In this document: positions 2,324 to 57,562 of the stretch, one piece after another
Numbering within the stretch: position 1 is the stretch's first letter
How the letters are laid out: the number at the start of each line of letters is the position of its first letter
Assembly: GCA_951406725.2 (NCBI GenBank)
Contig: OX597830.1
Coordinates: 26,412,001-26,476,000 of the forward strand
Direction of reading: 5' to 3'
DNA from: Octopus vulgaris
Taxonomy: Eukaryota
Length of the DNA: 64,000 nucleotides
The notes under the pieces: model-generated
Seen by the model: the letters and a program-made list of their open reading frames with translations, nothing else
Told to the model about the DNA's origin: nothing
The model's database searches: none
Program-made: the position numbers and the translations under genes

Positions 2324-2413
2324 ACAAGTTTGACAACCAAGAGAGGGTTTTGACGGATATGAACAAAAACGGATGTAATGTGAAATTTCTATTCCATCTC
2401 AGAATGATAGAGG
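2324..2413 (+). CDS. 90-nt internal exon of the PAN-domain gene, copy 1
   Basis: ttgtatttcAG acceptor, GTAAG donor, phase 1-1. Only one frame is open: KFDNQERVLTDMNKNGCNVKFLFHLRMIE. Confidence 0.6.
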
Positions 2414-3427
2414 GTAAGATAAAGTTTTCAGTAAATTATTTCTGTATCATTTATATTTAAGTTGCAATTAAATAAAAGATCTCAATGACAATGTGGACGC
2501 TATCCGATTGTTTTATTTGTAAGAGGCCGACTGATATTTGTTGTTCTGTTTCACACAAGAGGCATTTAACTCCTGTAATGTTACTTTCTTTGTGTTGGTG
2601 TCCTACATCTGGAATTCTTTAATGGCATTCTATAAAATTTATTTCTTGTCTATTGATAAAATTTATTTTACTTAATTTTTTATACATATAAATAATTCAA
2701 TATTTATATTTTATGCCTTTCAATTTTGATTTCAGTAATAATTACTCTTTGTCTCTAAGAAACGTTGCCGGTACAAAGAGTAGAGTAGAAAGAGAAATTC
2801 TTGCACAGGAGCGATAATAATCTCATTTAAAGCATCGTAGAACGTTCGGTATGGCCTTAAGTTAATGTGAACATGAGAGAGCGCAAAAGGAGAGAGAAAA
2901 GGCATTTCAATTTAGTGACATTACAAGCTTGCTTCCCAAAGACACCATATTTTTCTCTCAATTTTCCCTGCTTATTTTTCACTTCGAACTTTAGAGGCAA
3001 TGTTTTTAAGCTTTAATTTTCGTGTCCAGTAGTTTTTCAGGTTCGATTAATTAAGTATATTCTTACCCCTGCGACAGTATATTCTCTACAAGTAGATAGC
3101 GACGCGCACAGACATACATGCATGCATACAAATATATGTATATACAAACACGGATGTTACGAAAGTAAGGTAAATGGGGGCATAACTTTTTTTATTAACT
3201 GACATTGGTCATATTAACAAAGCAACACTTCCCCTATACCAATGTACTACTCACAACAATCTTCACCCAAGTGATGCATTTGTACCATTCTTAAACACAA
3301 CTCACGAATTCTCTTTGAGGAATATTAGATATGAAATTTTGAGAAATTTCAGTTTTCAGAATCTTGCTTATTTTTTTGCCTCATAATGGCGACTCTAATC
3401 CTTCTAAGATTTATTAAAAGTTATATA

Positions 3428-3580
3428 AGCGCAGGAGTGGCTGTGTGCTTACCAACCATACGGTTCCGGGTTCTGTCCCTCTGCGCGGCACCTTGGGCAA
3501 GTGTCTCTTACTATAACCTTGGGCCGACCAAACACTTGTGAGTGGATTTGGTAGACGGAATCTGAGAGAAGCCCGTCGTA
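3428..3580 (+). mobile_element. tRNA-derived SINE family A, 5' half (3' half at about 7825-8050)
   Basis: GCGCAGGAGTGGCTGTGTG...GGCACCTTGGGCAAGTGTC matches the intact copy at 22311-22707. It is split at its internal (TA)n by nested insertions. Confidence 0.8.
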
Positions 3581-7645
<4,065 letters not shown>

Positions 7646-7652
7646 ATATATA

Positions 7653-7802
7653 CAGTTGCGGCCAAAATGTTCAGAACGATATTGTTTTCGTCAGAAAAGT
7701 AGGTATAATTTTTTATCAAATTTGTTTTATATTCTATAATTTTCACAGACAATAAATACGATATTATTTGTTATTGTCTGATATTGTCTGAGGCTGCAAC
7801 TG
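7653..7802. mobile_element. Small Tc1/mariner-type MITE
   Basis: TA|CAGTTGCGGCC ... GGCTGCAACTG|TA. The paralogous copy is at 56250-56399. Confidence 0.65.
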
Positions 7803-8410
7803 TATATACATATATATATAAATATATATTTGTGTGTTTGTGTGTCTGTGTTTGTCCCCCCAACATCGCTTGAAAACAGATGCTAGTGTGTTTACGTCCT
7901 CATAACTTAGCGGTTCGGCAAAAGAGACGGATAGAATGAGTACTAGGCTTACAAAGAATAGGTCCTGGGGGCGATTTGCTCGACTAAAAGCGGTGCTCCA
8001 GCATGACTACAGTCAAATTACCAAAACAAGTAAAAGAGTATAATAGTAAAAGAGAGATACATCTTATCAATATTTAGTATATATACATATCATCAAACTC
8101 ACACACGCAAACATGGACACACACACAAACACACACACATATGTATATATTAGAAAAAGAAGGGAAATTTCGAACACAGGAAAGTATGTGAAGACTCTTA
8201 AAGAATGGTCTGAACAAATTCTCGCAAGGCGATAAACCGTAGCCAACAACCCACTACGGGGAATCGACGATTCTCTGTACATGGCTTGCTGGTCACATTT
8301 TCTTGACTTACAAGATTGTTTCTAGTCGAACTAGTAAGCAGCTTCTCTTAATTTCTAAAAAACACTAACTCATCCGACACGTGGGTGCACACACACAGAC
8401 ACACACACAG

Positions 8411-8442
<32 letters not shown>

Positions 8443-8621
8443 ATACACACGCATATATATATATATGCCCGTGTGCACGGCATATGGCGCAGTGGTTAAG
8501 AGTGCGGGCTACTAACCCCAAGATTCAGAGTTAGATTCCAAGCAGTGACCTGAACACTAACAATAATAATAATAATAATAATTAATAACATCCAAAATAC
8601 CTTAGGAATGAGAGATAGATT

Positions 8622-8688
<67 letters not shown>

Positions 8689-8859
8689 GTCTATACATAT
8701 ATGAATATAAATACACCTGAGTCTGCATGTATGGGTGTGTGTATGAGTTTTTAAATGAATGAGAGCGTAGATATATGAACATTCACAACTGTAAATACAG
8801 AATTTTGTAACAAATGTTCCTTCCATTCATATTGTTTTAACTTATTCATATTTTTACAG

Positions 8860-9056
8860 ACAGAAGCGGTATTAGCAGTGACTCTATGAAGAGGAGTGTT
8901 CTTTTTGAGGCGAAACGGAATACGTTAGCCGACATAAGGATGAAAAAGTTGCGCTCTGTCGAAGGTAGCATGGCGTGTGCAATCAAATGCATGGAAGATC
9001 TGAACTGTAGAGGATTCAGATATTACTCATACTGTGAAGTAGCTATAAAGTACTGA
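8860..9056 (+). CDS. Terminal exon with PAN/apple domain, gene copy 1
   Basis: tttttacAG phase-1 acceptor. RSGISSDSMKRSVLFEAKRNTLADIRMKKLRSVEGSMACAIKCMEDLNCRGFRYYSYCEVAIKY* shows the C-x3-C-x5-C-x2-F..C PAN pattern. Confidence 0.8.
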
Positions 9057-9197
9057 TTTTGGAAATAATGTTTTAAAACATATTCTTCACACAAACACAC
9101 ATACGTATTACCTATATATCCACACATATGCACACGCCTACACACAAACTCTCATGCACACACTCACACAAATACTCACATACGTAAATACACACAG

Positions 9198-9233
<36 letters not shown>

Positions 9234-9929
9234 ACAGGCACGCACACACACACACACACACACACACGTACATATACGAGAACACACGCATGTTAACACA
9301 CCGTTACACATACTTTCATACATACAAATACACAGACGCAGGTTCGCATACACATGTGGCACACACAGCTACACATCTATATACACACCTCCGCGCAGCT
9401 GCCAGCATGTTTTCGTGCTCTAGGTAAACACATATCTCTCAACGCATTCACATGCCCCTACACTCATACACGTATATACACATGTATACACACACAGACA
9501 CGCACATACACTGACACACAGACACTGAGACCTGCCTTACGCACACAAGTATAAACATACGTACATGCGCTCACACACACACACACACATTCACTCTCAC
9601 ACACACACGTACACGCATATGTACACATAAACGTATACACTTACTGACCTACACACACGTACGCACACATTCACACGCACATGTACAGATACGCGTGGAC
9701 ATGTACAGACACACGTACACGAATACAGACCTACATACGCGTACACATACTCGTATACACCCACACACACACTCTCATAGAGACACACACGTATACATGT
9801 ACGCACACGCACATACATACACTCGCAAGCGCGCACACAGATATACACACACGCACGCACACAAGCATACACACACACACGCATATATTTACACGCACGG
9901 AGAAAATATGCGTTTTTGTTGAAGGATTT

Positions 9930-10335
9930 ACTCTTTTACTTGTTTCAGTCATTTGACTGTGGTCATGCTGGAGCACCGCCTTTAGTCGAGCAAATCGACC
10001 CAGGACTTATTCTTTGTAAGCCCAGTACTTATTCTATCGGTTTCTTTTTCCGAACCACTATTTTATGGGGACGTAAACACACCAGCATCGGTTTTCAAGC
10101 GATGTTCGGGGGACAAACACAGACACAAACATATACACACACATACATACATATATATATATATATATACATATATACGACGGGCTTCTTTCAGTTTCCG
10201 TCTACTAAATCCACTCACAAGGCTTTGGTCGGCCCAAGGCTATAGTAGGAGACACTTGCCCAAGGTGCTACGTAGTGGGAATGAACCCGGAACCATGTGG
10301 TTGGTAAGCAAGCCACTTACCACACAGCAACTCTA
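9930..10335 (-). mobile_element. SINE family A, near full length
   Basis: Reverse complement of 22311-22707. Paralogous copy at 58563-58972. Confidence 0.85.
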
Positions 10336-10844
10336 CAGAAATCTGAGACATTCTTCTCATTTCGAAAGATATCCTAGGTTGTCCATAATATATATTGGAA
10401 ATATATAAGTTCCCCGATTAATCTTGTATTAGTAATGGTTTTGAAAATGAATTCATTGTCACATCGTTGTTTCTATCTTGAAGCTAGAAATATTAGAAAG
10501 GCTTTGTAAAACTGTGAGCAACAATTATTTTGAAATTCAGCACGTGTTCGAAGTTTAATTGCACTAATTTCTTTTATAGATGTGAAATAATTTTATGTCA
10601 AATATTTCTGAAATATATTTCCTATTTTTGTCTGCTTTATATATCTAATACAGACGCTTATTTAAAAGTGCACATACTCACAAACAGATATATGCGTGTA
10701 TATGCGCCATATACGCATATACACGCAAATATGCATACACACATTTGTGCATACATGTATGCTTATATGCCTACATACGAAAATAGATACATACACTCAA
10801 ACATACACACAAATACATACAAATGCACACACACGCACATACTC

Positions 10845-12200
10845 ACCTGCCACCCTCCAATCTGCCCCTCCGAACCTTCCGGCGACTCCAGTCCGACACC
10901 TCCACCTCGCACATCTTGCCCAACCTACACCTTCCCTCCTTAAAACGAGCGCATAACCTACGAGACCTCCTGGACCACAGTTCCTTCCCTAACCCCATCT
11001 CCCAGCCTGGCTCGTTCCCCTGCTCCCGTCCATGCTGCCGCACCAATCCCTACCTCTCCAACACCACCATCCTCACAGGCACCCATCATCTTCCCTATCA
11101 CACTATCGACTTCTTTACTTGTATTTCTAGTATCGTCATTTACTGCATCTCCTGCTCTCTCTTTCTCCTTCCCTGTACAACGGTCAAGCGAAACACCACT
11201 TGGCTGACCGGTTTGCGGAGCACCTCCGAGATATCAGACTCAGCAATGACACTCCAGACTCGCACATTTCTGCTCTGTCATTCGTTACAGCATCTATGTT
11301 TTCGGACTGTCTTTGCACAGGGACCATCCGGACTCCCGTCTTCACCGTGAACAAGAATTAGTCATCTCTCTTTGCTCCTTTGCGCCACATGGCCTCAACA
11401 CACATCTTCTTTTCATCTGGCATCTTCCTCAGCTCCTCTTTTCATTTGACAGCATCCACACCACTCTACACACACTCTAGCAGTGACCACTTCTCAGCAT
11501 CCACACCACACCACTATCCACTCACTCACACACAATCTTCGATAGCATCCCCACTCATACCATTACATGAGTTTCCACACTCACTGTTTAACTAAGTACA
11601 CATACCCTCATGCACACTCCCACACCCTCACAAGCACATAATACCCCGAACACAGACAGTCTATGCTATCACACACACACAAGCACGTAATAACTGAACA
11701 CAGGCAATATCTACATACACACGCAATACGCCTTAACTCACACAACATACACAGACAAAGATAACTTTCGCCCACATTTATACACCATATACATGCACAA
11801 TGTTTAGTCAGAAAGAGAGAGACGCACACATGTGCACACTACATGAGAAAGCACACCTCAACTGCCACACACACACAACACACACACACATACAAACACT
11901 TACTCACTCAAACACACCATTTTCACATACCCACACACACACAAGCGCAGCTTCTTTTGGGATCACTAGTACTTTATTATCTCCCTTTCTTTCAAACTTT
12001 TTTCCCAATCATTCGCCATGCTGGACCGCTGAAATCTACAGGTTTCTTTCATTCTCTCTCTGTTTATTTTCTCTTAATCTTTTCAGTTGATGAGTCTAGG
12101 CTCGAAATATGTTGTCGAGCGTCAAACTAATAAACTTGCTTGTTGTTCATACACCTGTCTTCGTCTTTTATTTTTCTATAAGTTTCTACTATGATTAAAT
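10845..12200 (+). mobile_element. Penelope-like element 3' fragment (Cys linker, degenerate GIY-YIG, tail)
   Basis: KRAHNLRDLL..PGSFPCSRPCCRT..FTCISSIVIYCISC, frameshifted. The tail end resembles 1290-1330. Confidence 0.75.
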
Positions 12201-12439
12201 AAATAAATAAATAAATATATATTTGAGTCACTCAAATACTTCTTCATCGTCGTCGTCGTTATTATTATTACTGTCGACTTTCGACCCTTCGAAGTCAATT
12301 GAATACGTACTAATTGAAAGTGGGTTTGATGTAATTTACTTATATCCTATCCAAAAATAGCTGGGTTTGTGCCAAAATTATTATTATTTTCATAAGTAAA
12401 TAAATTATTATCATTATTATTATTATTATCATCATTATT

Positions 12440-23594: not shown

Positions 23595-24752
23595 TTTTGT
23601 ATGTATATATATACTCGAATTTTAAGATGACGTTATTCTTTGTAGTTAAGTCCGAGCAACAATGAATATGTCGAAATATCTTCTATTATATTTCCGTAAG
23701 TTTACTTTCATTATAATTTTTGCAATTTTTTCTGTATCTCCTTTCACCCAACCGCCATATAGTCAAATCCAAATCACAAGTGACCATCCCGTCTTTCTTT
23801 CAGACACTGTGAAACTAATCTACATCAATCAAATTCTTTATTTTCCTATTCGTTTGTTTGTTTCAGTCATTTGACTGCGGCAAAGCTGAAGCACTGCTTT
23901 TTAGTCGAACGGATCGACCCCATGACTTACTCTTTGTAAGCTTGGTATTTATTCTATCGGTCTCTTTCGCCGAACCGCTATGTTACAGGGATATAAATAC
24001 ACCAACATCTGTTGTCAAGCGATGGTGGGGTGGGGAGACGAACACAGACACAATGTGACCTTTCTTTTTATATCCCTAATTTATTTGGAAAGTATTTTGA
24101 GCTGAACCCGTGTCAAGTATTTAAAAGACAAAAAAAAAAAAATGAACCTATTGGCGTAATTTTTGCAGATTATTTCGAAAAAGGAAGTAAAAGGAATATA
24201 GACAAGCAGCAACCGTTGAATCTTTTATAGGCTCTTCCCAACTATAACAATATTTATTTGTTTTACTTATTTTTAGTAATTTAAGGAATTGGCGATAGTG
24301 ATGACACTTGAGGTTTGGCGCAGTTAAGAATGATGCTTGAAAGTGTTAGGCTTTCAAGTGGTTGGTTGTAGAGCTTGTTTGTTCAGAAGAGCATTGACAT
24401 TTGTCGTAACTAAAGAATAATAAGAAAACTGACACCGCATGTCTGGCAAGCGGGGATGTAGACAGCCAATATTTTACCCGTGGATATTGATGTTATCAAA
24501 TAACCAAATAGAAAATAAGGGAAACGCTCATGCATGAGTTTGTGTCAATTGTGTGTAAATAATGATATTGTTACTTATTAGGTGCTTGTTGTTTAGTCCC
24601 AGCTTATACCTGAGTCGGTAGATAAAAGATCAAAACACCATTTACATGTTCATTTTTGGGTGCAGTATGTACATTTAGGAAATTTGGTTGGTTGTTTTGA
24701 CTGATAAAGCGATCACGTAAAAACTACTTTGTTATTGCGGAGACACACACAC

Positions 24753-37920: not shown

Positions 37921-37932
37921 TATATATAAATA

Positions 37933-41626: not shown

Positions 41627-41656
41627 TAGAAGGGGCGCTGAGGGTGTTATGTAGCC

Positions 41657-41697
41657 ATGAGGGGGCGGTTTAGAAATATTTTCATACTCTGTTATAG
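41657..41697 (+). CDS. Candidate first coding exon (needs a 1-nt correction in a G5 run)
   Basis: GCCATG start and G|GTAAC donor. Removing one G gives MRGGLEIFSYSVI, in frame with the next exon. Confidence 0.35.
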
Positions 41698-42184
41698 GTA
41701 ACAACACAAGCACATATACATTAAACCGAGAAACTAACAATGATCGTCCTTCAGCAAAACCAGAAAATACTCTATCGATCTCCGCAATTCTAGAAACAAG
41801 GTGCAAGGCGGTGGGGCTGAATCGGTAACCATATGGTTGGTAAGCAAGCTACTTACCACACAGCCACTCCTGCGCCTTTTAAATATGAAGAAATGATAGA
41901 TTCAAACAAATATATTTTGCTAAACTCATTAAATTTACTCTTCTTACTATAAAAAAAAAACCCCAAAAACAACATATTAAAATCAATGCTATCCTAACTT
42001 CACTAGAAATTCTTTGTGAATACGAATTCAAATATATATATTTAGAATTAGAAAAGAAACCAGTTCCTCTTACTGAATAAATCCCAATTCAATATTACTA
42101 GACGTTATAGCCCTTCGAACGTAGTTGAGCGGCTATTTGGTAATTACATATTTTATTTGTATATATTTTCTCTTCTCATTTCAG

Positions 42185-42223
42185 TGTTTCCTATATTACT
42201 GAAGATCCAGGAAGCAGGTACAG
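42185..42223 (+). CDS. 39-nt exon, probable end of signal peptide
   Basis: ttttctcttctcatttcAG acceptor, CAG|GTATGT donor, phase 1-1, FPILLKIQEAGT. Confidence 0.6.
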
Positions 42224-42592
42224 GTATGTACATTGAGAAACACTTTCCCTCCGTGTCTGCTCCAAATATATAGTGCGTGTGTTTATTTGGCAAAAAGAGA
42301 ATAAACCATATCGAAATACAACAGAATCTGTTTCAACACACGGTTTCACATCAGGAATCTTGGAACACAAATTCATAAACGTATACACACACATACGCGC
42401 GCGCGCACACACACACACACATATATATGCATAATTTGAGAGAGGGAGAGAGAATATGAGGGGTTTAGTTCACTAGTGATCTAAGCATATAGATACGCTG
42501 GGTAAGTGCTATAACTGGTCATCCGTTTGGTTCCAAGTTCACAGCTGAGGCTGGAGCTAGGGATTAGTATTAGGCATGTATGTTAGTAGGTA

Positions 42593-43189
42593 TATATTAG
42601 AGGGAGAAGAACAACAAAAACCAAGGTAGGATGAGTAACTCAAGTAATTTAGAATAATTTAATTAGAGTAAGGTGAATGAATTTGAAGTCTTACAGCTGT
42701 TTCTGGGTTATTCCATGTGATAGGCTAGCATGCCTGTACACTGGGTATTCCGTCATCGGAGTAAGGTACGTTGGAAAGTTGTTACAGGGAGGTTCACAGT
42801 TTATAAGGAATAAAATACCTGGGATTACTCATCTTCTTCCAGAGGGACTGGAGGTTGGTCCGTATAGGCTCTTAGGTATAATCTCAAACCTTCTCGAAAG
42901 CGATGAACTGTGAACTTAATTCTCCTGTCTGTATTCTTCTGTCTACATTTACTCTTTATTCTTCTGTTTTATTCCTTATAAAACTATGAATTTCCCTGTC
43001 TAGAACTTTCATACATACTCACTCTGTCTCTGATGACCGAACACCCAGTATACGGACACTCTAGCTTGTCACTTGGGATATCGCAGAAACAGCTGAAACA
43101 CTTCAAATCCACCGTACCCTAATTATTATTCTAAACGGCTTGAGATACTCGTCCTGCCTTCGTTTTGTTTATCTTTTCCCTCTAATATA
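42593..43189. repeat. Diverged inverted repeat (about 220-bp arms) of a PLE tail, with a hammerhead-like motif in each arm
   Basis: TATATTAGAGGG.. / ..CCCTCTAATATA ends. Motifs at 42688-42763(-) and 43026-43100(+). Confidence 0.7.
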
Positions 43190-43905
43190 TACATATATAT
43201 CATCAAAATAAGTAACAGGATATCAAGTATTAGTGCAATACGATCGTTTCAAGGGGCTCAATTTAATTGAACAATGTAAGCATTACATGAATTTAAATAC
43301 AGAGCTATCTACAGTTGCAAGAAATATGGATTTTCAACACACAAGATATATTGTTAATTTTTCTCAAATATGTACTTATGCACACGTACATATATACAAA
43401 CATGTTTTTATTTACATAGGCTCACAGATATTTATATATAAATATGTATGCACACAGATAAATAGGAATACACATATATACTCTTACATAAGTTAACGAA
43501 CGCAGACACAGAGTCTCACACACACGCATGTGTGTGTGTGCGTGCGCTGTGTGTGTGTGTGAGAGAGAGAGAGAGTGTGGTGTTCCTATATTTAACTCTA
43601 TCCTTCAGTATTCTACAGTATGTTCATACAAAATGTATCACGCACAAATATGCTTTGGTGTACTGGAATACACAAATGTGCTACGATTGCGAGATCGTGG
43701 GTTCGATTCTGAGACTCGGCGTTACGTTTGGTTCTTGAGTAAAGCAGTTCATTTCCCTTTGCGATCATTTTCTCAACTGACATGTTGTGCATGGTGCACC
43801 TGTACAGGTGTTATCGATTTGATGGAGGGATGGAGCTTATATAAACACCAACATTTGATCACTACAAACAAATAACCTGTGTCCATGACGAGAGACTCTA
43901 TCAGT

Positions 43906-43951
<46 letters not shown>

Positions 43952-44097
43952 CCGGTTTGATTTCTTTTTTAATTTTTCATACACCCATTTTTATTAAAAA
44001 GTACTTTCATTTTAGCATTCTGCCTTATTATTTTTTTCTTCTCCTATCACTTCTCCATTTACTGACTTATATACATATATATATACTTATTTATTTA

Positions 44098-44144
<47 letters not shown>

Positions 44145-44263
44145 ACATATACACTACATTTTACGCGTATATATTGGTGACTAAGAAATTTTTCAACACT
44201 GCTTGTTTGATCAAACATTTTGTCGTATCATTTCTTTATGTATAATATCCTATATTGTTACAG

Positions 44264-44509
44264 AATCGAATTTTCCAAATCGCGATAAATTCGTGAAAGT
44301 ACCCAACGCTCAATTCCCTTCGGGTACTCCGAAGACAATCAAGATAGTAACACTTTCAAATTGTGCAAATGACTGTCTGAATACGTTAGCATGTTATTCT
44401 TTTGCTTTCGACGAATCGATATCCACATGTTTACTGTACAAAACATGGACTGGCAAAGTCAGACTTCAAAATTCATTAGATTACAACTTCTATCAGAAAA
44501 TAAGATCAG
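44264..44509 (+). CDS. PAN/apple domain exon (domain 1)
   Basis: gttacAG acceptor, CAG|GTAAAT donor, 246 nt, phase 1-1. ..LSNCANDCLNTLACYSFAFDESISTCLLY..YNFYQK. Confidence 0.88.
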
Positions 44510-44638
44510 GTAAATATACTTGTTTGTTGTTGTTGTTGTTCTTGTTCTTGTTCTTCTTGTTCTTCTTGTTCTTCTTCTTGTTCTTGTTCTTCTTCTTCTT
44601 CTTCTTCTTCTTCTTCTTCTTCATCATCATCATCCTGA

Positions 44639-44704
<66 letters not shown>

Positions 44705-44730
44705 TTATTATCATTATTATTATTATTATT

Positions 44731-45115
44731 AAGGCAGCGAGCTGGCAGAAACGTTAGCACGCCAGGCGAAATGCTTGGCGGTATTTCGTCCGCCGCTGCA
44801 TTCTGAGTTCAAATTCCGCCGAGGTCGATTTTGCCTTTTAACCTTTCGGGGTCGATAAAATAAGTACCAGTTACGCACTGGGGTCGATATAATCAACTTA
44901 ATCCGTTTGTCAGTCCTTGTTTGTCCTCTCTGTGTTTAACCCCTTGTGGATAGTAAAGAAATAGTTATTTCGTCTGCCGCTACGTTCAAAGTGTAAATGT
45001 CGACTTTGCCTTTCATCCTTCCGGGTTCAATTAAATAAGTACCAGTTACGCACTGGGATCGATGTAATCGACTGGCCCCTTCCCCCAAAACGTTCAAGGC
45101 CTTGTGCCTAGAATA
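44731..45115 (+). mobile_element. SINE family B in (TAT)n
   Basis: AAGGCAGCGAGCTGGCAGAAACGTTAGCACG head. More copies at 48354-48790, 49591-49815, 51666-51802(-) and 63953-64000. Confidence 0.85.
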
Positions 45116-45166
45116 AAAATAAAAATTAATAATAACAATAATAATAATAATAATGATAACAACAAC

Positions 45167-45230
<64 letters not shown>

Positions 45231-45269
45231 GTTATTATTATTATCATTATTATTATTATTATCTTTTTT

Positions 45270-46115
45270 TCTTCTTTCAAATTTGCTTCCATTTCTTGCC
45301 GAGTGTCTTCCCGACTCCTAGGGCAAAGAAACTCATAGTATACATTGGTAGGCCATTAAACTAAACTCACTAGTTCGTTCATTTTGTTTTTAAGTTAAAT
45401 TAAAATACATGGGTAGTAATAGTTCTCACATCTATAATGCTCTTCTCAATACGTGTGATGTACCAGTTAAGACAATCATTCTCATATAATTTTCGATTCC
45501 CTTCTTAATCATTCCTAGTGCTCCTACTATCACTGGTATTGTAACCGCCTTGAGATGCCACATTCTCTCAATTTCAATGAGCAGGTCTTTATATTTTCTG
45601 AGCTTGTCAAACTCTTTCGCCGAGATATTATGATCACAGGGGATGCTCATGTCGATCAATAAGCAAACTTAATTGTTTTGGTCTTTCACAACAATATCCG
45701 GTTTATTGGCTTTGATGGCTCGGTCTGTATGTACTGGAAAGTCCCACAAAATCGTTACATTTTCTCCTTCAGTTGCAGCTTCAGGGTGGCGATTATACCA
45801 CTTGCCAGCAGTTTTGATATTGTAATGCCGACTTATTAGCCAGTGTAGATATTGGCCAACTCTGTCATGTCTTAATTTATACTCCACTGGTGCTAAGACT
45901 TTACATCCAGAGATTAGGTGGTCCACTGTTTCAATCATGTCGTTGCAGAATCGGGATTTTGGGTCTGCTCCATTTTTCATCACATTGGCCTGGTAGATCC
46001 GGGTTAATAGGCTTTGATCTTGAGCAGCCAAGAAGAAACCTTCGCTCTCTGCTTTTAGTCCTGAGCTCCGTAGCCACTAACGGGTTTGCTTCTGGTCAAC
46101 ATCAGCTTGTTTGCT
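45270..46115 (-). mobile_element. R4/Dong-like LINE 3' fragment (zinc knuckle plus RLE)
   Basis: AAQDQSL, RFCNDMIETVDHLISGC, RHD, ILWDF, KPDIV, KYKDL. Flanked by (TAA)n. Confidence 0.85.
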
Positions 46116-46134
46116 ATTATTATTATTAATATTA

Positions 46135-46194
<60 letters not shown>

Positions 46195-46409
46195 GTTATT
46201 ATTATTGAGTGAGAGAGCAGTGCATGCCATTAAAGTGACACTGGGGTAAAATATACGAAGCCCAGTATACCCATCATGATATGGGTACACCAGGCACATG
46301 CATCACAACCATATGTGCGCACCATGGTGCGTTCATATCAAGGCAAACAGCGCATGACCTTCAGGTGGGACGCAGTTAGAATATTCTTCTGGTCGAGTAA
46401 CCCATCCCG

Positions 46410-48203
46410 ATGAATATAACTGTATTAATACCTATGTGTGTGTATGTGTGTGCGTGAATGTGTTTGTGGATGGGTAGATGTCAAAAAGACAGATAGTGGT
46501 GTTGTAGCAGATATGTGTCTGTGTGCTTGATTACTATAGATAGAGGGAAAGAGAGAGAAAAAGAAAGAGGAGGGCGAGGTATTGGGACAAAGGCAAAACA
46601 AACCTCAATGGATTGGGTAGTATGTCTTTGAAAGCATAACAAATTTTTTTAAACTAAAGGGGTGAAATATAAATGGAAATATATTAATTAAAATTCAAGG
46701 GGGTTATCTATATTAGTCATTATTCATATGAGTGAAAGGTGTGTTTTCTCCAGTGCAAGCACCTGTAGGACCTCTCGACGATTGAATTTATTAAAGGTAC
46801 TTTGGCGAATAATATATGAAAAAATTAAGAATTACAGACGCCACAAATTTTTCTGCCCTTATCAAACGGAACGGATACCGACAAAATGGACCATTCCAGC
46901 TTGAAGATTGAATTGCTGTCTTTCAGACGCCAACAGATTAAAGTTCTTATTCCAAAATTCCAAAATTAGAAACACAATTTACCAATGCAAAATTTCTTCG
47001 GGTACCGATGTCTTCTTTTACATAGGGGCACCTTCGTCTAAATTAGCCCAAAGGATCTCCAACCATTATTCAACTTTCCGAGATAAGAGAAAACAACACA
47101 GCACGGGATTAAGCAAACTAATTTGGCGTCTGAAAGACAGCAATTCAACCTTCAAGCTGGAATGGTCCATTTTGTCGGTATCCGTTCCGTTTGATAAGGG
47201 CAGAAAAATTTGTGGCGTCTGTAATTCTTAATTTTTTCATATATTATTCGCCAAAGTACCTTTAATAAATTCAATCGTCGAGAGGTCCTACAGGTGCTTG
47301 CACTGGAGAAAACACACCTTTCACTCATATGAATAATGACTAATATAGATAACCCCCTTGAATTTTAATTAATATATTTCCATTTATATTTCACCCCTTT
47401 AGTTTAAAAAAATTTGTTATGCTTTCAAAGACATACTACCCAATCCATTGAGGTTTGTTTTGCCTTTGTCCCAATACCTCGCCCTCCTCTTTCTTTTTCT
47501 CTCTCTTTCCCTCTATCTATAGTAATCAAGCACACAGACACATATCTGCTACAACACCACTATCTGTCTTTTTGACATCTACCCATCCACATACACATTC
47601 ACGCACACACATACACACACATAGGTATTAATACAGTTATATTCATTCACTCACACAGACTCCCATTCACAAAAGAATTTAACAAAACCCACCATACATA
47701 CAACCTGTTCCAAATCACCTTACTTTTCTTAGGCCTCTCTCCCCCTACTTCGTTTGAACTCTTGAACCTTTAGAACCTTCTAGAATTTTCTACATTCAAC
47801 CAGTTTGACGTCTCTCATTATAAAGGAATATTAAAGAGACACTCATTATCACTATGCGCTCCGTGAGAGCAGTCATCTAAAAGTTTTTGTGAATCTTGAT
47901 GTTGACATAAATTCCTTGTTTTTCCTGATGAGAAAGCGGCATAATGTATTCCTTATTCCTTCACAATTAGGAATATGCAGCCTTCGAAACATATGTCGAA
48001 AATAAAGGAAATTTGTTAATTTGTCGTTCAACTCCATTCTTTCATTTATTCATATATTTTATAAAAATACACACAAATTTCCACACGAAAACACGTAGTC
48101 TCTGCCCTAGGCACGTAACTTCAACCGTGTTATTTCTGATGTGAATTTGCTACCCAGGTATCGCTTAAACGAATTATCCATAAAAAGAAATTTCATTTTT
48201 CTA

Positions 48204-48205
<2 letters not shown>
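46410..48205 (+). mobile_element. Penelope-like 3' fragment (GIY-YIG plus tail) with a 524-bp inverted duplication at its 5' end
   Basis: TIYQCKISSGTDVFFYIG..RISNH, same family as the 16-kb element. 46410-46933 is the reverse complement of 47123-47646. Confidence 0.9.
47912..48010 (+). ncRNA. Type I hammerhead ribozyme in PLE tail
   Basis: TTCCTTGTTTTTC-CTGATGA(47925-31)-GAAAGCGGCATA..TATGCAGCCTTC-GAAA(47986-89)-CATATG-TC-GAAAATAAAGGAA. Perfect core, GUC site. Confidence 0.85.
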
Positions 48206-48269
<64 letters not shown>

Positions 48270-48289
48270 CCACTGTCTGGTACTGCATC

Positions 48290-48355
<66 letters not shown>

Positions 48356-48786
48356 GGCGACAAGCTGGCAGAATGGGGAGCACACTGGGTGAAATGCTTA
48401 GCGATATTTTGTCCGTCCTTACGAGCTCGGTTCAAATTTTACCGAAGTCGACTTTGCTTTTCATCCTTTCGGAGTCGAGGAAAGTTTAGTCCTGGAGTTG
48501 ATATAATCGACTATCAGCCTCTCCTAATTTCAGGTCTTGTGCCCATAGTGAAAATTATTATTATTATTATTATTAAGGCGGCGAGTTGGCTGAATCGTTA
48601 GCACGCTAGACGAAATGCTTACCCGTATTTGCTCGTCGCTACATTCATTGTTCAAATTCCGCCGAGGTTGACTTTACCTTTTATCCTTTCGGGGTCGATA
48701 AAATAAGTATCAGTTGAACACTGAAGTCGATGTAATCGAATCATCACCTCCCCAAAAATTGCAAACCTTGTGGCAAAACTTGAAAC

Positions 48787-48844
<58 letters not shown>

Positions 48845-48893
48845 GTTATTATCATCATCATCATCATCATCATCATCATTATTATTATTATTA

Positions 48894-48959
<66 letters not shown>

Positions 48960-48966
48960 CATTATT

Positions 48967-49013
<47 letters not shown>

Positions 49014-49252
49014 TATTATTATTATTAAAACGGCTAGCTGGCAGAATCGGTAGTCCGCAGGCTACGTTCTGACTTCAAATTCCGTTGAGGTCGATTTTGC
49101 ATTTCATCCTTTCGGCATCGATGAAAATAGTACCACAAGAGTACTTTTTGTAATTGATGTTAGTGCAAATTACAAATTCGTAATTGATTGTATTTATTTT
49201 TTAAAATGATCTTATTTTTATTAATTTTTTTTTTTTTTTTTTTTCTTGACAG

Positions 49253-49486
49253 CGAAATGTCCAGTCAATGTTATTTACGGTGCCATGCTTGAAAATGCAG
49301 AAAATATCGCCGAACCAGAGCCAAAATCTTACTTTTTTTGCATGCTGGCTTGTAAAGAGAATACTTCGTGTTATTCTGCCAACTATAACGCAGACACATC
49401 CGCATGTTACGTGAATCACAGAAATTCGTGGAGCGCCAATATCACTTTACAATCGAGTAATTGGATATACACGGAAATTGATAGAT
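49253..49486 (+). CDS. PAN/apple domain exon (domain 2)
   Basis: poly-T..gacAG acceptor, GTAAGC donor, 234 nt, phase 1-1. ..SYFFCMLACKENTSCYSANYNADTSACYVN..WIYTE. Confidence 0.88.
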
Positions 49487-50520
49487 GTAAGCCAACGTTT
49501 TAGTCTGTCTGTCGATCTATCCAATCCAGCCTTCTATTGTAATGCAAAATTCTACACATAGTATATGTATGCATATATTTATGTATATATAAGGCGGCGA
49601 GCTGGCAGAAACGTTAGCACGCCGGGTGAAATGCGTAGCCGCATTTCGTCTGTCGTTAAGTTCTGAGTTCAAATTCCGCCGAGGTCGACTTTGCCTTTCA
49701 TCCTTTCGGGGTCGATAAATTCAGTTACGCACTGGGGTCGATGTACTCGACTTAATCCGTTTGTCAGTCCTTGTTTGTCCCCTCTGTGTTTAGCCCCTTG
49801 TGGGCAGTAAAGAAATGTATATATACATGTATACCAGGTATGTACACACACACATACACTCTCTCTCTCTCTCTCGCACATACACATACATAATATACAT
49901 TACATGTACTATACACATTATATGCACATATATATGTGTGTGTGTATATATATATTTGTGTTGATTGCTCCATATTCACAAACGGTTACCGTCACCTTGT
50001 ACCCTTCCATTTTCAGTGGCATTTCTGACATTTCATCCATGACACTTCAAATAACTATTCAGTCTTATCTCAGACGTGCATGATTTAAAGTATTGGTGAC
50101 AGATGTAAGTTGTAACTTACTTTGCATTTCCAAAAGGTTGTGTCTGTATACGTCGCCACGCTTCTGTCTACATAGGAATTTAAGTAGACAGGATTATGGT
50201 AAAAATGTTTATATTGCACGAACTCCTCTTTCTGAAACTCAGTTAATAGTATCAGGTGATAGGCCGAAGCAAGATATACAGTAGTAATGTAAAACCGCAG
50301 GTTTTACATCAAAACGTCCCGCTCCTAGATGGAATCTGTGGCAATAGTTAGGACTCTCTCCGGTGTGCGCCCTAGATATAGCAAAGGGGATTTCTGCATC
50401 ACTGTATTTAGATGTATTGTCATTATGTAAGGTAGTTAACCCATAGCTGAGAACCTGACAGGTCTACTACTCGAGTCAGTGTAGACCACACGAAATTCTA
50501 GAAGTCATGAACCAAAGTCG

Positions 50521-50578
<58 letters not shown>

Positions 50579-50738
50579 GCTACTACTACTACTACTACTA
50601 CTACACAGCAGCAACCACGGAATTACTGCCATAAGAACACTCGGAGTTCTTCACTAATCTAAACAATATTTTTAGCCTGATGTTCCAACAAAAAGCTTAT
50701 GAAGTATTTAGCATGGATTTATATTCCCTCACTAATAG

Positions 50739-50773
<35 letters not shown>

Positions 50774-50979
50774 TATACATACTGGAAAATGTATGAGATC
50801 CTTGGTACAGTTAGGTATATTTGAAAAAAGTAAAAGAATGTCTCCACTGGTAGTTCTAATCAGTTTAATTTACTATTCATAGATTTAGTGAACTAGATCT
50901 TTTATATTATTAAAAAACTAGAAAATGTAAATGAAACTGATTAGATCTACCAGTGAAGTCATACTTATACTTTTTTCAA

Positions 50980-51051
<72 letters not shown>

Positions 51052-51802
51052 CTGAGAGAAATATAAAAAATTATCTCTCCAATTATTCTAAACGGGACTC
51101 CTGTTAAGTGAATAATAAATGTAAAACTAAAAATGTTATATATAGATGTATAATTACATCCGAGGGAAATGAATACTTTTGCATTGGAGCGACTTCACAA
51201 ATTTTCAATAAGAGACTGACTAATCATATAAGTTCATTTAGGGATAATGATTAAAGTTTCCAAACAAGTCTAAATATATTAATCTGGTCTTTTAAACACA
51301 GAAACAAAGATTACACAATCAATTCTAGACAGGAACAAGTTTCAAGATACATGCTCACGAAAAAATCAGTTTAGATGAGTAATAAAAATTTAAATAGTTG
51401 AATGTTTTGAAATAACGGGCTAAAAGTGATTATCTAATCAAAACTTGTATTTAAGATAGTTCGCGTCTAAATTAAGGAAAAACTTCACATCATACAACGC
51501 ACAGTAGATATAGAAAAACTTTAAACAGTTACATCAAAGTATGTTAAAGTAAAGACGCTGAAGAAACTGCACCGGTATTATAGTAGAGTTGAAATTACCA
51601 CGGTTACTAACTGATGCAGTAGAAACACATGTAAGCCTATGTGAAGTTGAATATATATATATATTTTCTACTCTAGGCACAAGGCCTGAAATTTTTGGGG
51701 AGGTGCCAGTCGATTAGATCGACCCCAGTACGCAACTGGTGCTTAATTTATCGACCCCGAAAGGATGAAAGGCAAGTAGATCTCGGCGGAATTTGAACTC
51801 AG

Positions 51803-52550
51803 CTCGTCAACATCTCCCCAGCCGAACTCTCGGCTCGTCGTTCCCTCCGACGGCGCACTGACATCGTTATTAAACCCACCGACAAAGATGGAGCTGTGGT
51901 GATATGGCGCGCGGACATCTACAAGGCCGAAGTTCTCCGCCAACCTCATGACACCTCCTTGTACTGCCCTCTGCCCTCTGACCCCACGCCCAGCTACAAC
52001 AGACAGTCTCCTCTACTATCCATGACCTCATCTCGTCCTCCCGTCTCCCCCACACTGCATCCAACCTCATTGTTCGAACCCCCCGCACCCCCACCTTTTA
52101 CTTCCTCCCCAAAATCCACAAACCCAGCATCCCTGGCCGCCCCATCGTCTCCGCCTGTAACTGCCCACCTAGCTTATCTCAAAATATCTCGACCGTGTCC
52201 TTGCCCCCCTAGTGGCTTCTCGTGCTTCTCACATCCATGACACCAACCATGCTCTTCATCTATTCAACTCTTTCTCCTTCCCTCCTGGCTCCTCCAAACT
52301 TCTCTTTACACTGTGATCCCTCACCACGAGGGGCTGCGTGCACTGAAACACTTCCCGGACCTCAAAGCCAATCCCCAACCCGAGACCTCCACACTCGTTC
52401 GTCTGGCCGAACTTGTCCTTCCACTCAACTGCTTCTCGTTCGCGGGCGAGTTCTACCAGCAATGACACCCCGGTCCCACGCCATTTCCGCTCCACCGGTC
52501 ACTCCTTGCAACACCTGTCTGTGTTCGGATTGTCCTTGCACAGAGGCCAA
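51803..52550 (+). mobile_element. Internally deleted Penelope-like fragment
   Basis: IVIKPTDK..AVVIW, DPT, FYFLPKIHKPSIPGRPIVS, then a jump to the C-terminal PVPRHFRSTGHS. Confidence 0.85.
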
Positions 52551-53089
52551 TGGTTAGCATTCCATACAACTTCGTTCAAGAGTCGATCGTGGATATGGTC
52601 TGAAACGAAGTAAGTTTATGTTTGGGTAATGTTATTTAGCTAGGTTACGAAAGTTTTTGAAAGAAAAGTGTATTTCGTATAACCTGATATGGCTACTAAG
52701 ACTACAATGTAGTTGACTTAGATTTAAATTTTTAATAGGAGTGTATGTATGGGAGTGTGTTGGTGTATCTCAGGGCCCGATTAAGACACATAGATACCCT
52801 AAGCACTTAAAAGATATCGATGCTCTAATGTATATCTAATTCAAAATATAAACAATAATAAATAATAAAATAAAATTTTCTGATCATATGAACCACTTTG
52901 AATATATTTTAGCAAGTTTAAAGTGATTTCTTTTGTGCCACAAACAGTTTAGCATTTTGTGGTACCCTCCTTCACTTTATGCCCGAAGAAGGTACTTATT
53001 TTGCTTAATAGTAAATCAAGCGATGGTGTATGTATTTTAAGTATACGTTTATACACAACTAGTAGTAAAATTACGTCGTTGTATTTCAG

Positions 53090-53179
53090 ACAAGTTTGAC
53101 AACCAAGTGAGGGTTTTGACGGATATGAACGTAAACCAATGTCATGTGAAATTTCTATTCGATCTCAGAATGATAGAGG
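53090..53179 (+). CDS. 90-nt internal exon, gene copy 2
   Basis: Same splice sites as 2324-2413. KFDNQVRVLTDMNVNQCHVKFLFDLRMIE. Confidence 0.6.
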
Positions 53180-54320
53180 GTAAGATGAAGTTTTCAGTAA
53201 ATTATTTCTGTATCATTTATATTTAAGTCGCAATTAAATAAAAGATCCCAATGACAATGTGGACGCTATCCGATTGTTTTATTTGTAAGAGTGTTGGTGT
53301 CCTACATCTGGAATTCTTTAATGGCATTCTATAAAATTTATTTCTTGTCTATTGATAAAATTTATTTTACTTAATTTTTTATACATATAAATAATCCAAT
53401 ATTTATATTTTATGCTTTTCAATTTTGGTTTCAGTAATAATTACTCTTTGTCTCTAAGAAGCGATGCCGGTACAAAGAGTAGAGTAGAAAGAGAAATTCT
53501 TGCACAAGAGGGATAATATTCTCATTTAAATGATCGTAGAACGTTCGGTATGGCTTTAAGTTGATGTGAACATGAGAGAGCACAAAGGGAGAGAGAAAAG
53601 GCATTTCAATTTAGTGACATTACAAGCTTGCTTTCCAAAGACACCATATTTTTCTCTCAATTTTCCCTCTTTATTTTCCACTTCTAACTTTAGAGGCAAT
53701 GTTTTTAAGCTTTAATTTTCGTGTCCAGTAGTTTTTCAGGTTCGATTAATTAAGTATATTCTTACCCCTGCGACAGTATGTTCTCTACAAGTAGATAGCG
53801 ACGCGCACAGACATACATGCATGCATACAACATTCACACATACAAATATATGTATATACAAACACGGATGTTACGAAAGTAAGGTAAATGGGGGCATAAC
53901 TTTTTTATTAACTGACATTGGTCATATTAACAAAGCAACACTTCCCCTATACCAATGTACTCTCTCACAACAATCTTCACCCAAGTGATGCATTTGTACC
54001 ATTCTTGAACACAACTCACGAATTCTCTTTGAGAAATATTAGATATGAAATTTTGAGAAATTTCAGTTTTCAGAATCTTGCTTATATTTTTTGCCTCATA
54101 ATGGCGACTCTAATCCTTCTAAGTATTATTAAAAGTTATATAAGCGCAGGAGTTGCTGTGTGCTTACCAACCATAAGGTTCCGGTATCTGTCCCTCTGCG
54201 CGGCACCTTGTGCAAGTGTCTCTTACTATAACCTTGGGCTGACCAAACCCTTGTGAGTGGATTTGGTAGACCGAAACTGAGAGAAGCCCGTCGTATATAT
54301 ATATATATATATATATATAT

Positions 54321-55407
54321 ACTAGCTGAAGGTGACCCGCGTGTAGAGCGGGTCAGAGTGTGGTTGTTACTTTCTGTTGCCTCCTTTCAGCGCGTAAAAA
54401 GCACCATCCGAACGTGGCCTCTGCCAGCCCCCCTGGCACCTGTGCCGGCGGCACGAAAAAAGCACCCACTATTCTGACAGAGTGCTTTGCGTTAGGAAGG
54501 GCATCCACCTGTAGAAACACTGCCAGATCAGACTGGAGCCTGGTGCAGCCTCTTGGCTTCCCAGACCCTGGTCAAACTGTCCAACCCGTGCTAGCACGGA
54601 AAACGGACGTTAAACGATGATGATGATGATGATGGTGATGATTCTCCCTCTTTGTTTCTCTCTCACTTTTCCCACATTCTTACTCTTCCTTTCTCTCGGA
54701 CTCTCCCTCGCTTTCTCTTACTCTCTATCTTTATCTATCTCTCTCCCATTTATAAACAACAAAAGATCTTGAGTAAGTTGAGAAATAAAATATTTAGAAA
54801 GATCAATCATAAATATCAGGCAGTAACAACGGAAAGGTCTGCTTCAAGGCAGACAGCAAAACACTGAATAAAAATAATAAAATATTGGAAACCAAAGTTT
54901 GAAGGGATAGAATCTGAGGATAGTAGAGTCACTATGGCTGGCATTTCTTAACGACGGATAGCAACGTTTTGACAGTTTAACGGCTGGCGTAAAATTTTGA
55001 ACTTGATGTAAAAGAAAATCCCTAAACACCAAGTTTTGAAGTGATTCTTTCTCACGACAGTAGACTCACCATGGCAAGTATTCAAAACTTCTTCATCATG
55101 GACGGCAACACATTGACGATTAAAAGGCTGGCGCAAATTTTTTAGCTTGATGTAACAGAGAATTGCTAAACACCTGCTCCTTTAAATTTGTATCCTCTTC
55201 CAGCCCCATTTAGACCCCTTTTCACATTTCGGTTAATATAACCCGATTTCATTCGGGTCTACTGGGGCCACATTTTATAAGATGAGGAATTTTGTCCTAG
55301 AGGTGATGCCTTTCATTTGAGGAAAAAAAATAGTTGTCATGCAAACTTGCCAGCACTTTTAACATAGGTGTGCATATTTTCAGCTCAACCGACCACATAA
55401 TGCACAC

Positions 55408-55498
<91 letters not shown>

Positions 55499-56245
55499 GA
55501 GTCTCTCTCATACGTGAGCGTTGACGCTGAATTCGACTGGTAAGCAGGTAACCTTGTCTTTGTTGAAATAGTTGTGAGCTACTGGAGTAATTTCTCTGAC
55601 GGGTAATAGGAATTTCCATATCCTCCGAGGAAACGAACTGTTGACCCAGACAATTAGAATTGATTTTCATAAAAGCATCAATTTAACAAAAAATAATAAA
55701 GTAGTAAAAAATGAAAATTTAGCACGAAAAATTTGCAGGGTTCTAAATAAATGTTAAAATGTAATAGATACGAAAAACCTACGTTATCACCAGAACACGA
55801 ACGCTCGTTGGTGTGTTCTGTTTGTATTTGCTCGATCGGCGCGTTGACAGGCAGACAATAGAATGCGATGGCGAGGTTCATAATATTTGTTGTCATGTGT
55901 TGGCTGTGGCGATGATAATTCTCTCTATGAATGCAGACAGATACATAAGTGAAAGTTATGGGAAGGTAGGAAATAGAGTGAGTGAAAAAGTACTGGGAAG
56001 AGAGGAAATAGCGAGAGTGAGTTGAGGAAGACAGATACATTAAAGAACGTAAGTGGACTTGTCAAAGTGGGTTTTTGGCCCTAGCAATATACATTTTAAG
56101 ATAGGGATTTTTAAGGAAGCCCACGGGCATCGTCACATCATTTTACATGTCCCTGTAAATTTTGGAGTGAATCCGACGGGATCTAGTGGCCTTGAAAGCG
56201 ATCCAAGCGGTGGAAACGCATTTCAGTTTTATATATAGAGATATA
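54321..56245 (+). mobile_element. Single Helitron-like element nested in a split SINE A
   Basis: Same termini as the units at 3688-7645. Confidence 0.65.
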
Positions 56246-56983
56246 TATACAGTTGCGGCCAAAATGTTCAGAATGACATTGTTGTCGTCAGAAAAGTAGG
56301 TATGATTTTTTATCAAATTTGTTTTATATTCTATCATTTTCACAGACAATAAATACGATATTATTTGTTATTGTCTGAGATTGTCTGAGGCTGCAACTGT
56401 ATATACATATATATATAAATATATATTTGTGTGTCTGTGTTTGTCCCCCCCCAACATCGCATGAAAACCGATGCTGGTGTGTTTACGTCCTCATAACTTA
56501 GCGGTTCGGCAAAAGAGACGGATAGAATGAGTACTAGGCTTACAAAGAATAGGTCCTGGGGGCGATTTGCTCGACTAAAAGCGGTGCTCCAGCATGACCG
56601 CAGTCAAATTACCAAAACAAGTAAAAGAGTAAAATAGTAAAAGAGAGATACATCTTTATACATATCATCAAACTCACACACGCAAACATAGACACACACA
56701 CACAAACATAGACACATACACAAACACACACACATATGTCTATATTAGAAAAAGAAGGGAAATTTCGAACACAGGAAAATATCTGTGAAGACTCTTAAAG
56801 AATGGTCTGAACAAATTCTCGCAAGGCGATAAACCGTAGCCGACGACCCACAACGGGGAATCGACGATTCTCTGTACATGGCTTGCTGGTCACATTTTCT
56901 TGACTTACAAGATTGTTTCTAGTCGAACTAGTAAGCAGCTTCTCTTAATTTCTAAAAAATACTAACTCATCCGACACGTGGGT

Positions 56984-57027
<44 letters not shown>

Positions 57028-57168
57028 ACGCATATATATATATATGCCCATGTGCACGGCATATGGCGCAGTGGTTAAGAGTGCGGGCTACTAACCCCAA
57101 GATTCAGAGTTAGATTCCAAGCAGTGACCTGAACACTAACAATAATAATAATAATAATAATAATAATG

Positions 57169-57212
<44 letters not shown>

Positions 57213-57365
57213 TAATAACATCCAAAATACCTGCATGTATGGGCGTGTGTATGAGTTTTTAAATGAATGAGGGCATAGATATATGAACATTCACAACTGT
57301 AAATACAGAATTTTGTAACAAATGTTCCTTCATTTCATATTGTTTTAACTTTTATATTTTTACAG

Positions 57366-57562
57366 AGAGAAGCGGTATTAGCAATGATTCTATGAAGAGG
57401 AGTGTTCTTTTTGAGGCGAAACAGAATACGTTAGCCGACATAAGGATGCAAACGTTGGGCTCTGTCGAAGGTAGCATGGCGTGTGCAATCAAATGCATGG
57501 AAGATCTGAACTGTGTCGGATTCAGATATCACTCATTCTGTGAAGTAGCTCTAAAGTACTGA
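57366..57562 (+). CDS. Terminal exon with PAN/apple domain 3, gene copy 2
   Basis: tttttacAG acceptor. RSGISNDSMKRSVLFEAKQNTLADIRMQTLGSVEGSMACAIKCMEDLNCVGFRYHSFCEVALKY*. Confidence 0.8.

What the first reader, a model, noticed from the sequence alone, without database searches (positions are those of the whole stretch)
41657..57562. Cryptic, probably secreted multi-PAN/apple-domain gene largely missed by the ORF track
Seen: phase-1 exons at 42185, 44264, 49253, 53090 and 57366 splice into one open frame with three C-x3-C-x5-C..C modules. No protease or transmembrane segment is visible. The product is about 280 aa with the candidate first exon. Known: PAN/apple domains mediate protein and glycan binding. 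Inference: a lineage-specific tandem family of PAN-only secreted proteins. Further exons may be missed.
Basis: partly seen in the sequence, partly recalled or inferred. Interest (0 to 1): 0.7.

Follow-up and report, generated by a model that had tools for sequence, protein, structure and literature searches.

The report
Octopus secreted PAN-domain tandem family gene
This is an intact six-exon common-octopus gene, already partly in the databases, for a predicted secreted protein with two PAN binding domains and a shortened third one; it belongs to an unstudied cluster of fast-changing copies that likely bind sugars or proteins outside the cell.

Summary
The gene is real but not cryptic. Its first exon (41657) is not supported; the first coding exon is at 23668-23695. 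Six exons splice into 277 codons that align without gaps (190/277 identical, 14/14 cysteines) to Octopus bimaculoides XP_014768862.1. Without exon 3 the product equals O. vulgaris CAI9735099.1, so the public model lacks the first PAN domain. Modules 1 and 2 pass Pfam PAN_1 and match HGF/plasminogen PAN folds (Z 12.3). Module 3 is a truncated four-cysteine core below threshold. A signal peptide is inferred from hydropathy. No protease, Sushi or membrane segment was found. The 3' half of a ~95%-identical tandem copy lies at 2324-9056, with about 17 of 19 coding changes altering amino acids (suggestive, not significant against synonymous sites). Relatives form a one-chromosome cluster in three Octopus species, plus Argonauta. 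RNA-like contigs from two studies align to exon 4 alone, edge to edge; no junction was shown. Most likely role: a secreted, non-enzymatic, diversifying binder; ligand and tissue are untested. The scan noted this family earlier in another genome; no paper on it was found.

The parts
23646..23695 (+). First coding exon (AG at 23644-45; ATG 23668, in-frame upstream ATG 23662); N-terminal half of the predicted signal peptide
   Evidence: matches N-termini of CAI9735099.1 and XP_036366095.1
42185..42223 (+). Exon 2 (39 nt, phase 1-1): rest of the predicted signal peptide
44264..44509 (+). Exon 3 (246 nt, phase 1-1): PAN domain 1, four Cys; missing from the public O. vulgaris model
   Evidence: Pfam PAN_1 37.7 bits, cut-off 21.4
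49253..49486 (+). Exon 4 (234 nt, phase 1-1): PAN domain 2, five Cys
   Evidence: Pfam PAN_1 33.7 bits; RNA-like contigs of runs X3 and X5 align 49254-49486 inside longer records
53090..53179 (+). Exon 5 (90 nt, phase 1-1): linker with predicted short helix, one invariant Cys (Cys200) and a predicted beta-strand
57366..57562 (+). Exon 6: C-terminally truncated PAN-like core (four Cys) and stop codon
   Evidence: Pfam PAN_4 E 0.022, below cut-off; HHalign E 9e-4 to PAN1
2324..2413 (+). Exon 5 of the upstream tandem copy (intact splice sites)
8860..9056 (+). Exon 6 of the upstream tandem copy (open frame, stop in the same place)
1785..12222 (+). Upstream duplicate block, 92-97% identical in its main segments to the 3' part of the gene and its flank (to 60872), offset 48.5-50.8 kb

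Best explanation
The six exons encode an intact 277-residue protein with two PAN domains and a shortened third core, which is predicted to be secreted and likely works as a non-enzymatic binder of sugars or proteins outside the cell, within a tandem cluster whose copies likely diversify to grip different targets. Shown: exon structure, open frame, orthology, PAN membership of modules 1-2, tandem copy. Inferred: the signal peptide is cut near Gly21/Thr22, giving a ~29 kDa product with 3 N-glycosylation sequons and up to seven disulfides. Each PAN core would close two bonds, and the spare Cys107 would pair with the invariant linker Cys200. The domains would present 2-3 binding surfaces and so cross-link or coat targets by avidity. 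New specificities would arise by whole-gene duplication plus amino-acid change around fixed cysteines. The likeliest setting is recognition of microbes or other foreign surfaces in a secretion or in haemolymph (about 0.35 among the roles considered).
For: Ungapped 190/277 identity and 14/14 Cys positions with XP_014768862.1; the exon-3-skipped product is identical to CAI9735099.1. Tree: window gene with O. sinensis LOC118766646 100/99, and with O. bimaculoides LOC106868213 99/99. Pfam PAN_1 above cut-off for exons 3 and 4, and only PAN families on the full orthologue. AlphaFold2 model of the orthologue has mean pLDDT 74; VIA Z 12.3, rmsd 2.0-2.5 A over 81-82 residues to plasminogen and HGF PAN. 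One hydrophobic stretch, at residues 4-15 (11-residue Kyte-Doolittle 2.73); 19-residue maximum after residue 25 is 0.88. Paralogues share one contig per species. Between tandem copies pN 0.078, pS 0.030, non-coding 0.040 (155/3840); pN over non-coding p=0.012 one-sided. [quoted passage not shown]
Against: No ligand, tissue or protein-level evidence. pN against pS is not significant (p=0.22; 56 synonymous sites), and the 8 non-coding blocks range from 0.6% to 7.2%, so the p=0.012 is optimistic. If the contigs come from the species of P0004 (assumed), exon 4 has at least 22 replacement and at most 12 silent changes, a ratio near 0.5, i.e. fast but still constrained. Module 3 gave no clear structural match (best Z 3.4). 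No exon-exon junction appeared in the rows shown (878 joints not shown).
Confidence: 0.6

Rival explanations
1. A gland-secreted accessory protein of saliva or venom that blocks a prey or host adhesion or clotting interaction, as leech anti-platelet protein and saratin do with a PAN fold.
For: Leech LAPP Z 8.8 and saratin Z 5.7 among fold matches. Its PAN-PAN pair is about 29% identical to units of the Sushi-PAN-PAN proteins, whose small sister an unchecked scan note places in salivary gland. Fast amino-acid change.
Against: LAPP scores below HGF and plasminogen, and a shared fold shows no function. No Sushi domain. No expression data tie this gene to a gland.
Confidence: 0.17
2. A reproductive recognition or egg-coat/spermatophore protein whose fast change reflects sexual selection.
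For: Only 69% identity between orthologues of two congeneric species and replacement-rich change between copies. Fast change of gamete-recognition proteins is general knowledge (recalled).
Against: A many-copy cluster with paralogues down to about 21-28% identity fits a repertoire better than one recognition pair. No sex-biased expression data.
Confidence: 0.13
3. A structural cross-linker of mucus or extracellular matrix with little sequence constraint; the fast change is relaxed selection, not adaptation.
For: pN/pS not significantly above 1; relation to the giant PAN-PAN-Sushi chains.
Against: pN exceeds the pooled non-coding divergence, which relaxed selection alone does not predict. No low-complexity or strongly charged region (net charge about +1).
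Confidence: 0.07
4. The upstream block is an uncollapsed haplotype or a decaying duplicate, and the apparent diversification is noise.
For: Only the 3' half of the copy is in the window and no genome was held to check the rest. O. sinensis has two loci with an identical 187-aa model, which can be an assembly duplicate.
Against: 4% non-coding divergence plus indels, 14 amino-acid differences in 93, intact splice sites, cysteines and stop. This rival does not touch the reality of the main gene.
Confidence: 0.1

Closest known systems
Uncharacterised Octopus models: O. bimaculoides LOC106868213 (XP_014768862.1), O. sinensis LOC118766645/6 (XP_036366095.1), O. vulgaris CAI9735099.1
   Same: Orthologues or the same gene: 277 aa with the same 14 Cys (69% identical); 178/185 with O. 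sinensis; exact identity with CAI9735099.1 once exon 3 is left out
   Different: The O. vulgaris model omits exon 3 (PAN1). The O. sinensis model stops by reading through the exon-4 donor (187 aa). None has a described function.
PAN/apple domain (Pfam PF00024): HGF and plasminogen N-domains, factor XI/prekallikrein apples
   Same: Modules 1-2 have the four-Cys core and the fold (Z 9.3-12.3)
   Different: No kringle or protease domain; module 1 has four Cys, not the six of apple domains; module 3 is truncated
Tandem-apple lectins and adhesins: Toxoplasma MIC4, Sarcocystis SML-2; leech LAPP and saratin
   Same: Small PAN-only architecture; Z 9.2 (MIC4-A5), 8.7 (SML-2), 8.8 (LAPP)
   Different: 10-17% identity, different phylum; sugar-binding or collagen-binding residues were not tested
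Octopus Sushi-PAN-PAN repeat proteins (O. sinensis LOC118764742) and PAN-PAN-WSC protein (LOC106869731)
   Same: Homologous PAN-PAN pair, about 29% identity
   Different: No Sushi or WSC here; instead a family-specific linker and truncated third core; different contig

Membership tests
PAN/apple domain (PF00024 clan), modules 1-2 | Four-Cys core C-x3-C-x5-C..C | tested here: met
PAN/apple domain (PF00024 clan), modules 1-2 | Pfam score above curated cut-off | tested here: met
   37.7 and 33.7 bits against 21.4
PAN/apple domain (PF00024 clan), modules 1-2 | PAN fold (antiparallel sheet cradling a helix) | tested here: met
   model of the O. bimaculoides orthologue: Z 12.3, rmsd 2.5, 81 aligned to HGF N-domain; module 2 Z 9.6, rmsd 2.8, 80 aligned to an FXI/kallikrein apple
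PAN/apple domain, module 3 | Four-Cys core | tested here: met
   4 Cys invariant in 10 of 10 family rows
PAN/apple domain, module 3 | Pfam score above cut-off | tested here: not met
   PAN_4 15.2 bits against 27; PAN_2 14.2 against 21.1
PAN/apple domain, module 3 | Complete PAN fold | tested here: inconclusive
   model pLDDT 70, pTM 0.47; best Z 3.4, rmsd 3.6, 50 aligned (SML-2); other PAN entries Z 2.2-2.5 over about 40 residues; HHalign score 20.3 against at most 16.9 in 20 column shuffles
Factor XI/prekallikrein and HGF/plasminogen families | Serine-protease(-like) domain, kringles for HGF/plasminogen | tested here: not met
   only PAN families on the 277-aa orthologue; stop at 57560-62; no further family exon in the window
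Octopus Sushi-PAN-PAN repeat proteins | Sushi (PF00084) module | tested here: not met
   no Sushi hit at E<=1, whereas P0007 and P0010 have it
MIC4/SML-2-type galactose lectins | Galactose binding | not testable with these tools
   needs a binding assay; binding-site residues not compared
Secreted proteins | Cleavable N-terminal signal peptide, no membrane anchor | tested here: inconclusive
   hydropathy pattern fits; no signal-peptide predictor available

The most novel reading that the evidence does not exclude
The cluster is an octopod-specific, positively selected repertoire of small soluble recognition proteins built from PAN modules, a cephalopod counterpart of diversified invertebrate pattern-recognition lectins. 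Its C-terminal part is a new PAN variant in which the missing last strand is supplied by the exon-5 linker or by dimerisation.
Probability: 0.2. Interest if true: 0.65.

Novelty: new member of a known kind. Interest (0 to 1): 0.32.

Why it matters
The immediate gain is modest: a corrected gene model (true first exon; a PAN exon that the public O. vulgaris model omits) and a clear architecture for an uncharacterised octopod gene cluster. A diversifying set of secreted binders would be a concrete, testable candidate for how octopuses recognise microbes, prey or mates. That role is untested, and the scan has already noted the family on other DNA.

Tried and rejected
First exon at 41657: rejected. 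Further exons or copies in the window: tblastn with 25 listed family proteins and a profile search of 3146 six-frame segments found only exons 3-6 and the two upstream-copy exons; the two signal-peptide exons were not picked up by this test. Idea that read-through of the exon-4 donor supplies a functional sixth Cys (as in the O. sinensis model): judged coincidence, since two unnamed paralogue fragments have Gly there and no AATAAA/ATTAAA lies within 1.1 kb. Circular permutation of module 3: the model has a long linker strand next to the first strand but the fold searches neither showed nor excluded it; Foldseek gave no match at E<=0.001. PDB sequence search: only weak HGF hits, E 0.05-0.26. 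ESM Atlas: PAN_1 clusters at 0.93-0.94, leads only. Rfam: 0 matches. No whole genome held. Run search: no RNA holder on record, only guessed RNA runs. Reads were laid only on 41400-52800, 4 of 24 listed runs; output was dominated by repeats and cut, so no junction row was seen, and exons 1, 5 and 6 were not examined. Papers: 0 hits for six accessions, 0 for octopus + apple domain, 1 for cephalopod + PAN domain, on biomineralisation; listings showed none on this family. No PAN/apple mention in the main text of three cephalopod gland papers (word finds). Family accessions were not found in supplements of the salivary-gland, ink and skin-mucus proteomes (PMC7693380, PMC10142993, PMC10138644), but these files were cut, use other identifiers, and one prefix with 131 hits was not read through; PMC11431876's supplement could not be read. 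This is no evidence on expression.
Full report
Source. The window is repeat-rich animal DNA of about 37% GC. A predicted Octopus vulgaris protein (CAI9735099.1) is identical to a spliced product of the window, so the window is taken to be O. vulgaris. No whole genome was held.

Observation. All introns are GT-AG and phase 1, and the frame is open to TGA at 57560-62. The strict cysteine motif occurs 7 times in the window against a mean of 0.15 in 20 Markov simulations; 4 are PAN exons and the rest appear to be microsatellite noise. The proposed first exon at 41657 fails: its consensus-like donor is phase 2. The N-terminus of the O. sinensis orthologue maps to 23668-23695, with a perfect phase-1 donor. 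An acceptor at 23645 suggests a further non-coding exon upstream, and an in-frame ATG at 23662 could add two residues, as in a paralogue that starts M-N-M.

Gene product. The six exons give 834 nt, 277 residues. This aligns in one ungapped block to O. bimaculoides XP_014768862.1 (190/277) with all 14 cysteines in the same positions, and 178/185 to O. sinensis XP_036366095.1. The tree joins these as orthologues with 99-100% support (18 rows). The gene is therefore annotated, as uncharacterised, in three species. The O. vulgaris model skips exon 3, and the O. sinensis model ends by read-through after exon 4. Whether exon 3 skipping is a real isoform or a modelling error cannot be told; all internal exons are symmetric phase 1-1, so skipping keeps the frame.

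Expression. No listed run was on record as RNA. That fits a spliced transcript in a related species. No junction row was visible because repeats filled the cut tables, and exons 1, 5 and 6 were outside the stretch laid.

Domains. Exons 3 and 4 pass Pfam PAN_1 (37.7 and 33.7 bits, cut-off 21.4); exon 6 gives only sub-threshold PAN hits; exon 5 none. The full orthologue has only PAN families. AlphaFold2 on the orthologue with 19 sequences gave mean pLDDT 74, high in modules 1-2 and 45-70 in the last 80 residues. Foldseek ranked factor XI and kallikrein apple domains first (E 2e-6). VIA gave Z 12.3 for plasminogen and HGF PAN, 9.2 for MIC4-A5, 8.8 for leech LAPP and 8.7 for SML-2. Module 3 ends a few residues after its fourth cysteine and so lacks the last strand of a PAN domain. 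Profile comparison links it weakly to module 1 (E 9e-4; score 20.3 against at most 16.9 in 20 shuffles). Folded alone with the linker (pLDDT 70, pTM 0.47) it matched nothing clearly (best Z 3.4, SML-2). It is best called a truncated PAN-like core. The linker cysteine is invariant in 10 of 10 rows and is the likely partner of the unpaired Cys107 (inference). The only strongly hydrophobic stretch is residues 4-15; the mature chain would be 29 kDa, pI 7.6, with 3 sequons.

Family. A search of 1.84 billion representatives gave 31 hits. Of 20 looked up, 16 are Octopus or Argonauta, 1 is an annelid PAN-repeat protein and 3 are unnamed; 11 were not looked up. All 6 hits that reach the C-terminal module are octopod. 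Named paralogues share one contig per species: O. bimaculoides LOC106868212, -213, -215, LOC106868906, LOC106882156; O. sinensis LOC118766643, -645/6, -661, -705, -781; O. vulgaris CAI9735099, -100, -246. The PAN-PAN pair is also about 29% identical to units of the Sushi-PAN-PAN giants on another contig.

Tandem copy. Bases 1785-12222 repeat the 3' part of the gene and its flank at 92-97% identity in the main segments, with intact exons 5 and 6. In 93 codons there are 19 base changes, about 17.3 replacement and 1.7 silent: pN 0.078, pS 0.030. Non-coding divergence is 0.040 (155 of 3840 in 8 blocks, range 0.006-0.072). pN against pS p=0.22; pN against non-coding p=0.012, one-sided and optimistic given the spread between blocks. 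This is suggestive of diversifying selection, no more. Against a blanket claim: exon 4 between species looks constrained (ratio near 0.5 if the contigs are from the species of P0004, which is assumed). I ran this test before seeing two unchecked scan notes that report the same family and similar excesses in another genome; they are not independent evidence.

Mechanism. Shown: gene structure, orthology, two PAN domains, tandem family. [quoted passage not shown] Inferred: a secreted, disulfide-bonded, multivalent binder without catalytic part, diversified by duplication; confidence 0.6. Recognition of microbes or other foreign surfaces is the role I favour (about 0.35); saliva accessory, reproductive and matrix roles are the rivals. 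No datum here fixes tissue or ligand.

Literature. No paper names the accessions or an octopus PAN/apple family in searches of the held library (listings and abstract starts seen). Word finds in PMC7656900, PMC12607849, bioRxiv 2026.04.09.716377 and PMC13425148 showed nothing on it. Proteome supplements were cut or unreadable and may bear on tissue. Subscription papers are not covered. The label 'GON-domain gland proteins' comes from scan notes, not from a paper I read.

Verdict. A real, already partly annotated gene; a new member of a known kind, in an octopod cluster not found described in print. Interest 0.32.

Noticed in passing
window 36587-37996 (-): 469-codon open frame with a reverse transcriptase domain (RVT_1, E 6.5e-30): LINE-type element inside intron 1.
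   Followed up: partly
window 30371-31264 (-): Mariner-type transposase remnant in two frames (HTH_48, E 2.6e-9) in intron 1.
   Followed up: partly
window 35676-36224 (-): Pif1 helicase fragment (E 1.6e-14), probably Helitron-derived (recalled association).
   Followed up: partly
window 16416-18038 (-): 540-codon open frame between the two gene copies with no Pfam hit; by eye it resembles a Penelope-like element with a GIY-YIG-like end (recalled, untested). A similar short frame lies at 46905-47231.
   Followed up: partly
window 46410-46933 and 47123-47646: 524-bp inverted repeat, 99.6% identical, 189 bases apart, in the intron between exons 3 and 4.
   Followed up: no
window about 14040-14670: Further inverted-repeat structure seen by eye; not analysed.
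   Followed up: no
P0009 residues 18-41; window 21636-21707 and 63580-63651: The N-terminal extension of a paralogue's database model matches a dispersed repeat, so that model probably includes a repeat-derived false exon.
   Followed up: partly
O. bimaculoides LOC106868213 isoforms: RefSeq isoforms use two different first coding exons and two acceptors for the first PAN exon; no second first-exon match stood out in the window.
   Followed up: partly
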